Shown here piece after piece: positions 19,131 through 55,307 of a DNA stretch of 64,000 bases. Made by a program: the position numbers and the translations under genes. Origin of the DNA: Eledone cirrhosa (lineage: Eukaryota); the NCBI GenBank assembly GCA_964016885.1, contig OZ024745.1, forward strand, positions 14,570,001-14,634,000, in the 5' to 3' direction. Within the stretch, counting starts at the first letter, position 1, and the number at the start of each line of letters is the position of its first letter. The notes below the pieces were generated by a model, which was not told the origin of the DNA, made no database searches, and saw nothing but the letters and a program-made list of their open reading frames with translations.

Positions 19131-20380
19131 TTTGAATTCTATTTTAATTGTGCTGCTTTGTAGAAGAGTAAACATCTCAGGTCGCTAAAATCACACCTTT
19201 CTGTTTAACATCTTTTGTGAAGATTATCATCCGTAAAGATAGGAGAAGGGGAAACGTATTTATTAGTTTGCTCCTTTGGGAGATTTGTAATGCAAAGGTG
19301 TTTAACGTACTTTATCTGTGTGTGAAACCAAAATATTGATCGCATTTCGATTTGAAATCATTTTTATACTAATAACGTTTGTATCACACATAAAATAGGC
19401 GTGACAGATGGTTTTTAATGTTGACACATTTTTGACTTTTATAGAATCAAATTGATTAACACATCGTTGGATCAATTTCAAATATTGATTACAACATGGA
19501 AATGTTTTTATAAAAACATAAGAAGAGAATTTGTACCATAAAAGATGTAAAAATAGACAGAAGATACGTACAATAATGATTCCTAAATTGGTTTCCACAT
19601 CTTAAACAAACAAGGTATGCCAACTAGAAATATTTCAGTTTCATTACTTATAAATGATTTATAGCAGATAATTAAAAGAAAGTTGAAGTCAAATAAATAT
19701 CACAAATACCTAATTCTTTCATTTTTTGTTTTGGGGGGAGGGGGGGGGGGCACATAATTTATTCTAGATTAAATGACTGAAACAGGAACAAGTATCATAA
19801 ACCAGATATGATTCAGTATTAAGGTAAATATCTCTAATCAATAAAAACATGTAAACGAAACCTCCCCCCTTTATCTCTCTCTCTCTCTCTCTCTCTCTCT
19901 CTCTCTCTATATATATATATATATATATATATATATATATATATATATATGTAAAGTTATATTTAAAATTGTTGGGTTACAACTAGTAAATATTTATAAC
20001 TGATATAAAAGCACTCGACAAATATTTGGAGTATATTTACAATATTAAATAAATGGAAAACTATATTTATAAAACCATATCTATTTCATTATATATATTT
20101 CGGGGATATCATATTAACAATATGCTATGCCTTCATCAAACAAAATACAATATAAACAGTTTTATAGATAAATATATTCGACATACCGTAATAAACATCA
20201 ACTTCATTTGAAGAGGTTTACGCTAGCAGTGAAAATACAGAGAGAAAGAAAGAGAGAGAGAAAAGAGGGAAATAAGAAAGAAAGAAAGACAAAACGAAGA
20301 AAAGGAAGAAAAAGAAGAAAAAGAAAAAGAAGAAAAAGAAGAAATGCATGGGACAAAATAGAGAGATGGAAAAATAGATA

Positions 20381-21857
20381 AATGACAATAATAATAGGTT
20401 TATTCAACTTGATATAGCTAACTATTATTCTTCTATTACCCCTAGTCTACTAAATAAGGCACTAAATTACGCATTCAAACATACGGACCTAACTAGCAAA
20501 GAAATGCATATTATATTATCGGCTAGGAAAACTTTGATAGAATTTGATGACAAATTATGGACCAGAGCAGATAGAGATAGCAATTTTGACATAACTATGG
20601 GATCTTCCGACTCAGCTCAGGTAACTGACCTTGTGGGCTTATTTTTAATCAATTCGCTACATAGGAAAATACCTGGTACTACCGGAGGTTTATATAGGGA
20701 TGACATGCTTTTACTTATTAATAATAATAACCCTGAACTAAATAGAAAATGTAAACAAATTACAAAATTTTTTAATTACTTTAACCTTAAAATAGAAATT
20801 GAGAACAACCATAGAATAGTCAATTTCCTAGATATAACATTAAATCTCAACACATGTCTCCACTATCCTTTTCACAAGTTGAATGAAAACTTAAACTATG
20901 TCAACTTTAACTCTAACCACCCCAGATCTGTCAAAAACACTATAGTAAACTCAGTCCAAAAACGTATCTCTAGGATCTCGTCGAATAGAAAGATTTTTGA
21001 CGAAAAGGCCCAATACTATAATGATGCACTAGCTAGGGCAGGGTATGCTGATAAGATTGTGTACATAGATAATGATAAACAAACTAAACAAAGTAACAAC
21101 TTTTTTAATTACGGCAACAACATTAACAACTATAATAGAAAGCATTACAATAATTCCAAAGGACAAAAAAGAAATAGAACTAGGAACATAATTTGGTTTG
21201 CCCCCCCCCCCTTTCTCACTAAACATTAAAACCCACATCGCTAAATTATTTTTCAAAGCTCTTGATAATCGCTTCCCTAGAACACATAGGTACCACTCAA
21301 TCTTCAATAGGCATACAATTAAATTAACCTACTCATCCACCAAAAATTTAGCACAAAATATTAATAGAATAAATAATAGGAACTTAAAACCTACTGATAA
21401 TAGCATAAATAATATACAAGTTAACAAATGTAACTGTAGAGATAGATCTAAATGTCCGTTAAATAACAACTGCTTAGTTAAAAATATAGTATACAATTGT
21501 AATGTTAATACTGACTCTAATTCTTTTAACTACGTCGGTTCCACATCGACGGAATTTAAACTTCGCTATAATAACCACAAGAATTCTTTCACAGATCCAA
21601 ATAAAAAATCTTCAACGGCACTATCAGGGGTACTCTGGCAACTTAAGCTAGATAACGTTAGATATTCGACGGCTTGGAATATAGTCTCAAGAGGGATTCC
21701 TTTTAATTCATCCTCTGAGACATGTGACCTCTGCGCAGAGGAGATATTCTTTATACTAAAATCTAAAAATTCCCTTAACCTACGGACAAATTTATTCAGT
21801 TGTTGCAAACATAGATTAAACTCAACGTTTAAATATAAATTTAAATTTAAAATGTAG
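20381..21857 (+). pseudogene. PLE reverse transcriptase + GIY-YIG endonuclease (5'-truncated, one frameshift at poly-C 21201-21211)
   Basis: FIQLDIANYYSSI, FDITMGSSDSAQVTDLVG, GLYRDD, VNFLD, SNHP, RNIIWFAPP, IFNRHTIKLTYS, CNCRxxxxCPLxxxC, IVY...YVG, FKLRYNNH, CDLC and CKHR. This motif set is characteristic of the Naiad clade. Confidence 0.9.
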
Positions 21858-23432
21858 TATATTTAGTTTGATTTATATTTATATGAGAACTAGCCGATAA
21901 ATCTTTTGATTCCTAAATCTTTGATACCCTCTTTTTACTCTTTTTATTGTTTATTTTATTTTATTTATTTTTATTTTTATTTTTATTTTTATCTAAACAT
22001 TCCTCATGAAAAATTAAGCTACCCTAAAAGCCGATGCTCCAAATTTTTTGAATTAACCTTACACTAGATAAACTTATATATTAAATATTGGAACATATGT
22101 AGACATTATTGGACATCATAATCTTTTTTGCGATATTCCTTGCTAGATGTGATTTGATAGATAATTTTTGGCTTTGTCTTGTAATGAACTTGGCAATATA
22201 TTGTCAATTAACTTTGAAGGGTTGTTCTTTGTGGTTTATTTTTATTTTCATTTTTATTTTTATTTTTATTTTTATTTTTATTTTTATTTTTATTTTTATT
22301 TTTATTTTTATTTTTATTCTTTTAGTATTGTAGTATTCTATAATATTTTTATTTTTTATTTTATTTTATTTTTATTTTTTTATTTTTTTATTTTTTTATT
22401 TATTTTTAATATTTTTATATGTAAATTTTTATTTTTAATATTTTTATTTTTATTTTTATATGTAAATTTTTAATACGTAATATTTTTAATACGTAGTATT
22501 TTTAATATGCAATATTTTTATTATGTAATATTCTTTCGTAATATTTTTTTTAGTTTTCTATTCTATATTTTTATATATTTTTACTTATTATCATTATTAT
22601 TGTTATCTTTGTTTATAATATAATATATATTTTCGATTAGTATATTGAAATCTGCTCTCTATTTCTGCTTGATAGATAATCTTGTAGCGTAATCGCAAGA
22701 ATAATAATACGCTCAAATTTTTATACCACATTGAGAATGTTTTCCGGTAACTTAGAATTTGCGGAGTGAATCAGTTGGATTCACATTGATGTTTGTAGCT
22801 GTCACATAGACATATGAATTTTTTAAAAACTAAACATGAGATAATGAATTTTCACGCATTGTGAATACTTGTTTCATTCAGGAATACTGATATTTACAAT
22901 ATAGTGTAAGTTTTATAAATACTAATACATTAAAACATAGGGTTTTCTACGCCTCGAATATGTCTGGCTATTTTTAAATTTTTTCTCTCTCTATATCTCT
23001 CTATATCTCTCTATATATCTCCCTTACATTAATACTTGAGCTAAATAAATAAATAAATAAATAAATAAATAAATGCATCATTGATACACTTACTCAAAAT
23101 GACCTCCCACTACCTAATTTTCTATATATATATATGTATCTATCTCTATTTCCTCTCTCTCTCTATATATATATATCTTTCTGTCTCTTTACATGAAGCT
23201 CTTCGCTTTATCTATTTTTCCATCTCTCTATTTTGTCCCATGCATTTCTTCTTTTTCTTTTTCTTCTTTTTCTTCCTTTTCTTCGTTTTGTCTTTCTTTC
23301 TTTCTTATTTCCCTCTTTTCTCTCTCTCTTTCTCTCTCTCTGTATTTTCACTGCTAGCGTAAACCTCTTCAAATGAAGTTGATGTTTATTACGGTATGTC
23401 GAATATATTTATCTATAAAACTGTTTATATTG

Positions 23433-23498
23433 TATTTTGTCTGATGAAGGCATAGCATATTGTTAATATGATATCCCCGAAATATATATAATGAAATA
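23433..23498 (+). ncRNA. Minimal type I hammerhead ribozyme in the PLE pLTR
   Basis: Stem I tattttgt/atgaaata, CUGAUGA 23441-23447, long stem II, GAAA 23479-23482, palindromic tatata in place of stem III, then UA. The inverted copy at about 20082-20147 has UUGAUGA. Confidence 0.75.
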
Positions 23499-54256: not shown

Positions 54257-54654
54257 TATATATATATATATATATATATATTGTTATACTATATATATTG
54301 TTATACATATTTATATATTGCTCTCACAGTCTGTAGACAAGGCAACACTCCTTCTACGAGCGGTTTTCAAGTCTAATTTTCAACTTGATATTCTCTCTTC
54401 CCTATCTGCTACGATAAGTATGGGCTCTACGTAACCCTGTTATTGTAATTCTGTCGAAGTTAACTGAAGAGACCATCCTGTCTTGCATCATAATTGCATG
54501 ATGGAGCTGGGCCATTGAAATACATATAGTGATTTCACGGCATTAAAATCTACAACATATCTTCCAGTTGTCGCTTTAAATATATTTGCTTAGAATAAAT
54601 GAATCTTGAATATTAGGAGTGCCGGCATTTGTATCATTCTGTATCACTGAGTAT

Positions 54655-54840
54655 TTTTCTATAAAAATAGTTTTTGTAAAGAATTCCAATTCTTTAAATC
54701 CATCAACCAATGACCTCCACCCATCCCAATCCAACAGAAAATGTATAAATACCACCTTATCACATTGACAGTTGGCTTTCCTGATGATTTCCTTCGAATG
54801 AAACAGTTCTAGTCCTGTAGAAGCCACTTCTATATTAAAT
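54655..54840 (+). mobile_element. Solo pLTR related to 46332-46548, with an intact hammerhead at 54773-54826
   Basis: ccaatgacctccacccatccca, tataaatacca, then tggctttc-CUGAUGA-tttccttcgaat-GAAA-cagttctagtcctg-UA-gaagcca. Confidence 0.8.
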
Positions 54841-54940
54841 ACACACACACACACGCATATATATATATATATATATATATATATATATATATATATATAT
54901 ATATATATATATATATATATATATATATATATATATATAT

Positions 54941-55307
54941 AAGAAAAAGGGATGAAATCGAAAATGCAACTGAAGTCTTATTTTTTTAAAAAATATATAT
55001 ATTTATTTGGTTCCTTTACCGGTTTCGCAGTTCTTCTGCTTTTCAAAAGGTGAGTTGAGATGGAGGGTCTGTGGTTTTTCTCACATATATATATATTGTG
55101 AGAAAAACCACAGACCCTCCATCTCAACTCACCTTTTGAAAAGCAGAAGAACTGCGAAACCGGTAAAGGAACCAAATAAATATATATATTTAAAAAAAAA
55201 ATAAGACTTCAGTTGCATTTTCGATTTCATCCCTTTTTCTTTATACTTCCACTCGTGTAGGACACCTCGGTTATTTTTCATTTTGTAAAAAAAACCTCAC
55301 TTTCTAA
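54941..55307. mobile_element. ~300-bp near-perfect palindrome plus tail in (TA)n, with a variant hammerhead on each arm
   Basis: Arms 54941-55085 and 55097-55241 around a (TA)n loop. cctt-UUGAAAA-gcag aagaa ctgc-GAAA-ccgg-UA-aagg at 55132-55169 (+) and 55013-55050 (-). Confidence 0.85.

What the first reader, a model, noticed from the sequence alone, without database searches (positions are those of the whole stretch)
20012..55263. Conserved bulged hairpin at the start of the tail, exactly where the short arm stops, across 7 families
In element sense each tail begins with outer stem / inner stem / 2-nt 3' bulge starting with T. The examples are: TACTC-caaa ta tttg-TC-GAGTG (reverse of 20012-20033); TACTC-cag..ctg-TA-GAGTG (45720-45746, also reverse at about 53172-53197); TACTC-tgc aat gta-TT-GAGTA (reverse of about 45947-45967); TACTC-tact..agta-TT-GAGTA (reverse of about 30802-30827); TACTC-taggg..cctta-TT-GAG (29775-29820); GTTC-tgca tcccct tgca-TT-GAAC (29498-29521); and TTC-cac..gtg-TA-GGA (55247-55262). 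The flanking sequences are unrelated but pairing is kept through compensatory changes. The partner arm ends in an AT-rich spot within about 10 nt upstream of the hairpin. Inference: this is a cis-acting RNA signal bound by the PLE protein that sets internal initiation of reverse transcription. Internal initiation is, to my recollection, described for a vertebrate PLE. I do not know of this specific motif being described across these families.
Basis: partly seen in the sequence, partly recalled or inferred. Interest (0 to 1): 0.88.

Follow-up and report, generated by a model that had tools for sequence, protein, structure and literature searches.

The report
Twin hairpins set retroelement start sites
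One group of telomerase-related jumping genes carries a small bulged hairpin twice in a row, and inserted copies end a few letters before one hairpin or the other, so the pair is likely the RNA signal that tells the copying enzyme where to start and would explain the one-sided tail of these elements.

Summary
All eight strings are at the stated places. A detector blind to the motif found it at the tail start in 15 of 37 tail clusters (shuffled: 1.95). Corrections: the protein-linked families are Hydra-clade Penelope-like elements, not Naiads; the 55247 example is another clade and fails (0 of 26 copies). New here: full-length and tandem copies carry a second hairpin just behind the tail end, so both junctions lie 5-12 nt before a hairpin's conserved C and the tail is the gap between twins. 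In hairpin families 45 of 45 fold-back insertions from samples not picked by their ends use one site at each end. Junctions share about 3 nt with the (TA)n target. Hydra-type leaders from metagenome contigs carry two copies in 11 of 13 clusters, with C-G/U-A covariation (24 of 24). Protein binding and RT positioning are inferred, not shown; the hairpins fold weakly. Nine literature searches found no description of the motif; internal initiation at two sites is published for a lizard element. This scan reached the same twin-hairpin reading earlier on other pieces of this genome (three reports).

The parts
20012..20033 (-). Hairpin 1 of family A (Hydra-clade PLE), at the start of the tail
   Evidence: 33 of 41 copies pass; key C-G pair probability 0.95
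19951..20039 (-). Tail of family A: from junction 1 to junction 2, ending in (TA)n; in full-length copies hairpin 2 and the ATG follow
20032..20382 (-). Long (tailed) arm of the family A fold-back insertion
   Evidence: self-BLAST 96.6% to 23207-23548
20378..21857 (+). 5'-truncated Hydra-type ORF (RT core, CxCX5C linker, GIY-YIG), in two frames with a shift near 21200; intact copies elsewhere are 737 aa
23207..23548 (+). Short arm of family A, stopping at (TA)n just before hairpin 1
23441..23482 (+). Hammerhead core match (CUGANGA...GAAA) of family A, about 70-110 nt before hairpin 1
   Evidence: pattern match; no Rfam hit; cleavage not tested
29498..29521 (+). Hairpin 1 of family F (GUUC/GAAC form); short arm ends near 29398, tail near 29595; family also forms 517-518 nt ORF-less tandem arrays with hairpin 2
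   Evidence: 13 of 16 copies
29704..29727 (+). Hammerhead core match of family E
29775..29820 (+). Hairpin 1 of family E; short arm ends near 29637, tail near 29859; family linked to a Hydra-type ORF
   Evidence: 15 of 21 copies; most copies carry one inner mismatch
30802..30827 (-). Hairpin 1 of family D; short arm ends near 30914, tail near 30755; family linked to a Hydra-type ORF in one locus
   Evidence: 52 of 57 copies
45614..45660 (+). Hammerhead core match of family B
45720..45746 (+). Hairpin 1 of family B; short arm ends near 45351, tail near 45800; full-length copies have hairpin 2 and a Hydra-type ORF
   Evidence: 19 of 19 copies
45947..45967 (-). Hairpin 1 of family C; short arm ends near 46547, tail near 45902; hammerhead core matches at 46010-46032 (-) and 46488-46510 (+); no ORF link obtained
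   Evidence: 7 of 9 copies
53172..53198 (-). Hairpin 1 of a second family B insertion; short arm ends near 54254-54260, tail near 53116
55247..55262 (+).

Best explanation
Hydra-clade Penelope-like elements carry two tandem copies of a small bulged hairpin between the hammerhead and the start codon, and these are likely the RNA binding sites that place the element's reverse transcriptase at two internal start points. Shown: each copy has an outer stem ending in U-A and C-G, a 2-nt 3' bulge that starts with U, and an inner stem that opens with C-G or U-A around a loop of free length; insertion ends lie 5-12 nt before the conserved C of one hairpin or the other; the ends share about 3 nt (UAU) with the (TA)n target; nearly every fold-back insertion has one end at site 1 and one at site 2. 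Inferred: a protein molecule binds each hairpin on one RNA; the GIY-YIG domains cut both strands of a (TA)n tract; each cut 3' end pairs with the UA-rich stretch just 5' of one hairpin and is extended from there; the downstream start copies the stretch between the hairpins (the tail) and then reads through the region already copied from the upstream start; the two cDNAs join head to head and give the fold-back with a tail on one side only. ORF-less tandem derivatives keep both hairpins and would be mobilised in trans.
For: Second hairpin behind the tail end: family A 21 of 21 continuations, B, F, and five more families. Hairpin 2 lies outside the copied sequence, so it cannot act on the nascent cDNA of that priming event (logic). 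Ends at (TA)n in 101 content-blind sequences plus 20 protein-picked loci: 95 at site 1, 103 at site 2, 7 elsewhere; pairs 53 of 54 mixed (45 of 45 in hairpin families), binomial P 3e-15 against random pairing. Shared letters at junction 1: mean 3.1 nt against 0.6; 21 of 25 representatives have 3 or more. Metagenome leaders: 11 of 13 clusters with two sequence-anchored copies, 2 with one; 24 copies against 0.05 in shuffles; first inner pair Watson-Crick in 24 of 24 (16 C-G, 8 U-A; none of 5000 partner shuffles reach it), second 14 of 18, third 8 of 11. Own genome, anchors only: inner pairs 1, 3, 4 exceed partner shuffles (P 0.001, <0.001, 0.002); outer stems switch among ACUC/GAGU, GCUC/GAGC, GUUC/GAAC. 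Published Hydra consensi of a sea cucumber and a coral show the motif at the same places (read by eye). In PMC11167929 a lizard PLE starts RT internally at two sites that bound the tail, cuts and extends both strands, needs RNA downstream of the start site, and is predicted to be a dimer.
Against: No binding or priming experiment. Folding is weak: -2 to -8 kcal/mol alone, key pair probability 0.17-0.96 for hairpin 1 and 0.01-0.60 for three hairpins 2 in local context; the antisense strand folds about as well. Three hairpins 2 have a 1-bp inner stem and one a loop of about 130 nt. Two non-Hydra families show the same two-site, mixed-end structure without the hairpin, so it is not the general PLE signal. 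21 of 37 clusters lack the strict motif; most have no clade assignment. Inner pair 2 in the own genome (P 0.19) and pair 4 in the metagenome set (P 0.31) do not exceed shuffles; shuffles ignore relatedness. 4 of 152 pairs in tail-picked loci and 1 of 54 otherwise have two tailed ends. Hairpin 2 could not be seen for families C, D, E. By eye, Hydra-1_Amil and Hydra-1_Obim show no clean copy and Hydra-1_Crog only a variant. Only 2 distinct junctions were measured in metagenome loci. In vitro the lizard element starts without homology to the cut DNA and inside a stem-loop, not before one.
Confidence: 0.7

Rival explanations
1. The motif works at the DNA level: RT starts further downstream, and the endonuclease later recognises the motif in single-stranded or extruded DNA of the intermediate and trims it at the element's own TA-like stretch 5-12 nt upstream.
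For: PMC8557442 ascribes the tail to EN-mediated resolution; PMC11167929 reports that the Drosophila virilis EN needed the tail to recognise plasmid DNA. The outer stem is conserved in sequence, the cut would fall in TA-like letters that resemble the target, and folding does not pick a strand.
Against: Direct internal RT starts at both tail boundaries were mapped in vitro for the lizard element. Loops of 4 to more than 60 nt and covarying inner pairs suit a single-stranded RNA site better than a duplex DNA site.
Confidence: 0.12
2. The hairpins serve translation or packaging of the element RNA (binding of the protein to its own leader after hammerhead cleavage), and the junctions fall nearby only because UA-rich stretches there can pair with the (TA)n primer.
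For: Hairpin 2 lies 34-41 nt before the start codon in 9 of 11 twin-hairpin leaders. Junctions share about 3 nt with the target and come in two registers 3-5 nt apart within a family.
Against: The leaders are AU-rich throughout, yet only 7 of 205 ends fall away from the two sites; the offset to the conserved C is about the same across families with unrelated flanks; ORF-less arrays of 483 and 518 nt keep both hairpins.
Confidence: 0.14
3. The hairpins are chance matches in AT-rich tails or a neutral relic of shared ancestry.
For: The stems are short and weak; loose descriptors do give chance hits with long loops; geometry alone, without the sequence rules, is only slightly enriched (19 against 13 of 37).
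Against: 15 against 1.95; 24 against 0.05; kept twice per leader in elements only 34-39% identical in protein, with compensatory changes and unrelated flanks.
Confidence: 0.03

Closest known systems
Hydra clade of Penelope-like elements (Craig et al. 2021, PMC8557442)
   Same: Domain order RT then GIY-YIG, DKT, RW[K/R], CxCX5C linker, no CCHH, type I hammerhead, (TA)n insertion, inverted 5'-truncated copy with a tail at one end.
   Different: The passages and supplement parts that I read describe no hairpin beyond the hammerhead. Tails here are 57-170 nt against the 30-40 bp given for PLEs; the family A unit is 4.0 kb against 'generally <3 kb'.
Internal initiation at two sites in Poseidon_Ac of the green anole (Frangieh et al. 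2024, PMC11167929)
   Same: Two internal start sites bound the tail, downstream of a hammerhead; both DNA strands are cut and extended; RNA downstream of the start is needed; dimer predicted.
   Different: There the sites are inside the ORF, in one AC-rich stem-loop, with no homology to the cut DNA, and no conserved motif per site is defined. Here each site has its own copy of a conserved bulged hairpin in the non-coding leader, starts lie 5' of the stem, and about 3 nt match the target.
Non-LTR retrozymes of animals (PMC7229834; bioRxiv 10.64898/2026.07.22.740005)
   Same: Families F and F16 form ORF-less tandem arrays of 483-518 nt with hammerhead-like cores, as expected of non-autonomous PLE derivatives.
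   Different: Word searches in those two texts found no 'hairpin', 'bulge' or 'tail'; the twin hairpin would be the cis signal that lets such arrays be mobilised.
Naiad clade
   Same: (TA)n insertion, inverted arms and tails also occur in Naiads.
   Different: Naiads have an N-terminal endonuclease, a CxC motif before RT and no canonical hammerhead; none of the ORFs linked to hairpin families has that order.
Telomerase RNA elements that position an internal template, and the 3' RNA signal of R2 (both recalled, no call)
   Same: A protein-bound RNA structure next to the template fixes where a DNA 3' end pairs over a few letters and is extended.
   Different: No sequence or structure likeness was tested; here the signal is duplicated and serves two DNA ends.

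Membership tests
Hydra-clade PLE | Single ORF with RT followed by a C-terminal GIY-YIG endonuclease | tested here: met
   737-aa ORF with YRDD at 352 and a GIY-YIG-like motif at 614; Pfam gave no hit for it, so the call rests on motifs
Hydra-clade PLE | Linker CxCX5C | tested here: met
   position 596; also in 10 of 14 metagenome ORFs, three of the other four being cut short
Hydra-clade PLE | DKT in place of DKG, and an RWK motif | tested here: met
   DKT at 118; RWR at 37, a conservative variant
Hydra-clade PLE | No CCHH motif in EN; CxxC and CxH near the C-terminus | tested here: met
   no cysteine pair inside the GIY-YIG motif; CxxC at 694, CxH at 721
Hydra-clade PLE | Type I hammerhead in the pLTR | tested here: inconclusive
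   core pattern present in A, B, C, E; no Rfam match; none by my pattern in D; cleavage not tested
Hydra-clade PLE | Insertion into (TA)n | tested here: met
Hydra-clade PLE | Placement in the Hydra clade on an RT tree with reference sequences | not tested
   reference proteins were only readable in a supplement and were not entered into any tool
Naiad | N-terminal GIY-YIG linked to a C-terminal RT | tested here: not met
   order is RT then EN in family A and in the tblastn-linked families B, D, E, F21/26, F22, F23, F28; families C and F have no linked ORF
Naiad | No canonical hammerhead | tested here: inconclusive
   hammerhead core patterns are present, but some Naiads also keep a core
Neptune/Nematis-type PLE (family G at 55247 only) | CX2-5CxxC linker and CCHH-type C-terminal GIY-YIG | tested here: met
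   GIY-YIG PF01541 E 1e-7; linker with the first C replaced in the one copy read, C-x2-C and two H in EN; arm and EN linked in many copies; which of the two clades was not tested
Known Rfam RNA family | Match at gathering score over a hairpin | tested here: not met
   0 of 92 matches at E up to 5 reach gathering score
RT-positioning RNA signal | Bound by the RT protein and needed for start-site choice | not testable with these tools
   needs binding and TPRT assays

The most novel reading that the evidence does not exclude
Hydra PLEs insert by double-ended priming: a protein dimer docks on two tandem hairpins of one RNA, opens a (TA)n tract on both strands and copies the same template twice at once from two fixed internal starts, each set by a 25-nt hairpin and three paired letters, which yields the fold-back and its one-sided tail in a single reaction; the hairpin alone would be a portable start signal for a telomerase-related RT.
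Probability: 0.45. Interest if true: 0.86.

Novelty: new variant of a known kind. Interest (0 to 1): 0.74.

Why it matters
How Penelope-like elements, the sister group of telomerase, choose where to start copying, and why they have inverted arms with a tail on one side, is open: the one in vitro study found two internal starts but no conserved signal. A short, duplicated, covarying motif with a fixed offset to each junction makes this testable with point mutants, in a family with at least 150 identical protein copies and intact 737-aa ORFs. It also offers a diagnostic for Hydra elements and their ORF-less derivatives, and a candidate minimal RNA handle for RT-based insertion into (TA)n.

Tried and rejected
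Family F6 (59-nt tail) seemed to have a hairpin behind its tail in L083; that 111-nt stretch is the end of another family joined on, so I dropped it. The automatic list of second hairpins held long-loop hits that I judged chance (clusters 0, 11, 12, 18, 34) and one duplicate (10); dropped. Continuations for D (3 places), E (2), C (1), clusters 20 (2) and 28 (1) looked like flank or misalignment and were not counted. The G-U against A-C count (26 against 12) is biased by a descriptor that allows G-U and includes doubtful rows; not used to pick the strand. The first family F junction row (77 at -13) came from a reference at a contig edge; redone (11 of 13 at -6), and the pooled histogram is not used. 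5' truncation points against the hammerhead are confounded by how loci were picked. Hairpin spacing against tail length (r 0.995, 6 families) restates the junction result and is not independent. A protein search meant to find other families' 5' ends returned only family A relatives. The first metagenome scan found nothing. Pfam and PDB gave no hit for the Hydra protein. No RNA holder listed; no reads were laid. The dimer prediction was not run, so the dimer rests on PMC11167929. Eight-letter searches in the Naiad and Chlamys consensi showed, by eye, no motif at element ends apart from one possible match noted below.
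Full report
Observation. 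All eight strings are in the window as written. Self-comparison shows that each sits in an inverted-arm insertion inside (TA)n, one arm stopping at the microsatellite and the other running on through a tail.

What the elements are. The window lies in a 3.0-Gb genome; the family A protein has at least 150 identical matches and intact copies of 737 aa in 4011-bp tandem units. It has RT then a C-terminal GIY-YIG-like motif, DKT, RWR, a CxCX5C linker and no CCHH. These are the diagnostics of the Hydra clade in PMC8557442, not of Naiads. Hydra-type ORFs are directly linked to clusters D, A, E, B, 21, 22, 23, 26 and 28; 8 of these 9 pass the strict hairpin test and the ninth a relaxed one. Families C and F have no linked ORF. 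Family G (55247) is tied in many copies to a different endonuclease with a CxxC linker and CCHH pattern; so is a 59-nt-tail family, from one locus. Neither has the hairpin (0 of 26, 0 of 16).

More than chance. I wrote a detector that knows nothing of the motif (inverted arms, one arm at (TA)n, tail of 25-200 nt) and ran it on the window and all 341 own-genome loci then held: 266 tails in 37 clusters, 67 of them from the window and 100 stretches of 10 kb taken without regard to content. The conserved C lies mostly 8-11 nt after the junction. Without the sequence rules the 2-nt 3' bulge is only mildly enriched (19 against 13), so the signal is sequence and shape together.

The second hairpin. 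In full-length family A copies the tail end is followed after about 9 nt by a second copy of the hairpin and then the start codon (21 of 21 continuations). The same holds for B (into its ORF), F and cluster 16 (tandem arrays), cluster 19 (4 of 5 places), cluster 23 (into an ORF, long loop, read by eye), and clusters 13 and 22 (one locus each). That is 8 of 8 hairpin families whose continuation I accepted as element sequence; the continuations and chance hits that I dropped are listed under Tried and rejected. Three of these second hairpins have only one inner pair.

Junctions. In the content-blind and protein-picked loci, 95 ends at (TA)n fall at site 1, 103 at site 2 and 7 elsewhere; of 54 fold-backs with both ends typed, 53 have one of each (45 of 45 in hairpin families, 8 of 9 in the two non-Hydra families); three more have one untyped end. 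In loci picked by a tail query 148 of 152 are mixed. The first base not shared with the element lies 5-12 nt before the conserved C at both sites, often in two registers 3-5 nt apart. At site 1 the template shares on average 3.1 nt with the TATA flank against 0.6 expected (21 of 25 representatives with a TATATA flank have 3 or more).

Other animals. A degenerate RT motif scan gave 79 metagenome loci, 77 with a tblastn match to the family A protein; 14 intact-start ORFs are 34-39% identical to it and carry the Hydra motifs. Of 26 ORF starts with upstream DNA, 17 reach back to a hammerhead core; they form 13 clusters, of which 11 have two sequence-anchored hairpins and 2 have one; one of those two has a second perfect hairpin that missed the anchor, the other a degenerate one. 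With no condition on inner pairing, the first inner pair is Watson-Crick in 24 of 24 (16 C-G, 8 U-A), the second in 14 of 18, the third in 8 of 11, the fourth not above shuffles. The anchors were chosen after viewing, and shuffles ignore relatedness. Two distinct junctions could be measured, at 6 and 5 nt before the C. In the published Hydra consensi, read by eye, Hydra-1_Ajap begins with two clean copies 61 nt apart, Hydra-2_Ajap and Hydra-2_Amil have one in the tail, Hydra-1_Crog has variants in the tail and at the 5' start, and Hydra-1_Amil and Hydra-1_Obim show no clean copy.

Against. The hairpins are weak by folding and often not the favoured local structure, and the antisense strand folds as well; a role would need protein to hold them. 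Nothing here shows binding, expression or hammerhead cleavage. Non-Hydra families reach the same two-site pattern without this motif.

Mechanism. Shown: twin motif, fixed offsets, short match to the target, mixed ends. Inferred: one protein per hairpin on one RNA, cuts on both strands of (TA)n, each 3' end primed just 5' of one hairpin, two cDNAs joined head to head. Hairpin 2 is never part of the insert, which points to the template RNA rather than the cDNA. I put this at 0.7; trimming by the endonuclease at DNA level 0.12; a translation or packaging role with incidental junctions 0.14; chance 0.03.

Literature. PMC11167929 (read: parts 1-2 of 4 of the text, passages, supplements 1 and 3; supplement 2 and the GenBank file not seen) maps two internal starts that bound the tail in a lizard Poseidon element, in an AC-rich stem-loop. 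PMC8557442 (abstract, passages, one section part, supplement parts 1, 2, 52, 53 and two word searches) defines the clade and ascribes the tail to EN resolution. PMC4209133, PMC7229834, PMC3846280 (passages only) and bioRxiv 10.64898/2026.07.22.740005 (part 1 of 5 and passages; supplements closed) show no such motif in what I saw. Nine searches found no description; subscription papers and Repbase notes are not covered. Rfam has no match at gathering score. The telomerase and R2 comparisons are recalled. Three earlier reports of this scan on other pieces of the same genome give the same twin-hairpin reading; I saw them after noting it myself, and they are not independent support.

Verdict. A real, clade-specific, duplicated RNA motif that marks both insertion ends of Hydra-clade PLEs; a new variant of a known mechanism; interest 0.74.

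Noticed in passing
L220 (family F), L070 (cluster 16): ORF-less head-to-tail arrays of 517-518 and 483 nt that keep a hammerhead-like core and both hairpins; they look like non-LTR retrozymes derived from Hydra elements.
   Followed up: partly
L107:1900-2152, L084, L226, L257, L265, L194, L135, L174: A further high-copy family (H) with the hairpin 111 nt before a fixed end at (TA)n and compensatory inner changes between subfamilies; no inverted partner arm seen in these loci, and several copies begin at (TA)n just after a hammerhead-like cleavage position, read by eye.
   Followed up: partly
L083:4270-4440: Chimera: the tail of a non-Hydra family continues straight into the last 111 nt of family H, starting 8 nt before its hairpin; possibly a template switch at a start site.
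   Followed up: partly
window 54841-55383 and L085:4992-7474: Family G and the 59-nt-tail family are non-Hydra PLEs with the same sharp two-site, mixed-end structure but no such hairpin; their start signal is unknown. G has faint likeness to the motif's 3' side at a similar offset.
   Followed up: partly
L350 against window 45720-45746: The inner stem and loop of hairpin 2 in one metagenome element match those of family B hairpin 1 at 14 of 15 letters, although the proteins of that set are about 35% identical to family A.
   Followed up: no
PMC8557442 File S5, 3' part of the record before Naiad_Obim: By eye, one Naiad consensus (by list order Naiad_Mmer) has a clean 5+6 bp match to the hairpin in its 3' UTR; may be chance or a sign of wider spread.
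   Followed up: no
window 52611-52809 and 54662-54840: Another tailed fold-back (41-nt tail, no hairpin) and a tail-less arm related to family C with a hammerhead core at 54781-54803.
   Followed up: no
window 11253-12784, 13729-16714, 35142-38661, 58726-63829: Broken LINE-like RT ORFs of several kinds, judged from translations only; a 32-bp tandem array at about 56770-58800; a Helitron-like helicase fragment at 222-596 by recalled likeness.
   Followed up: no
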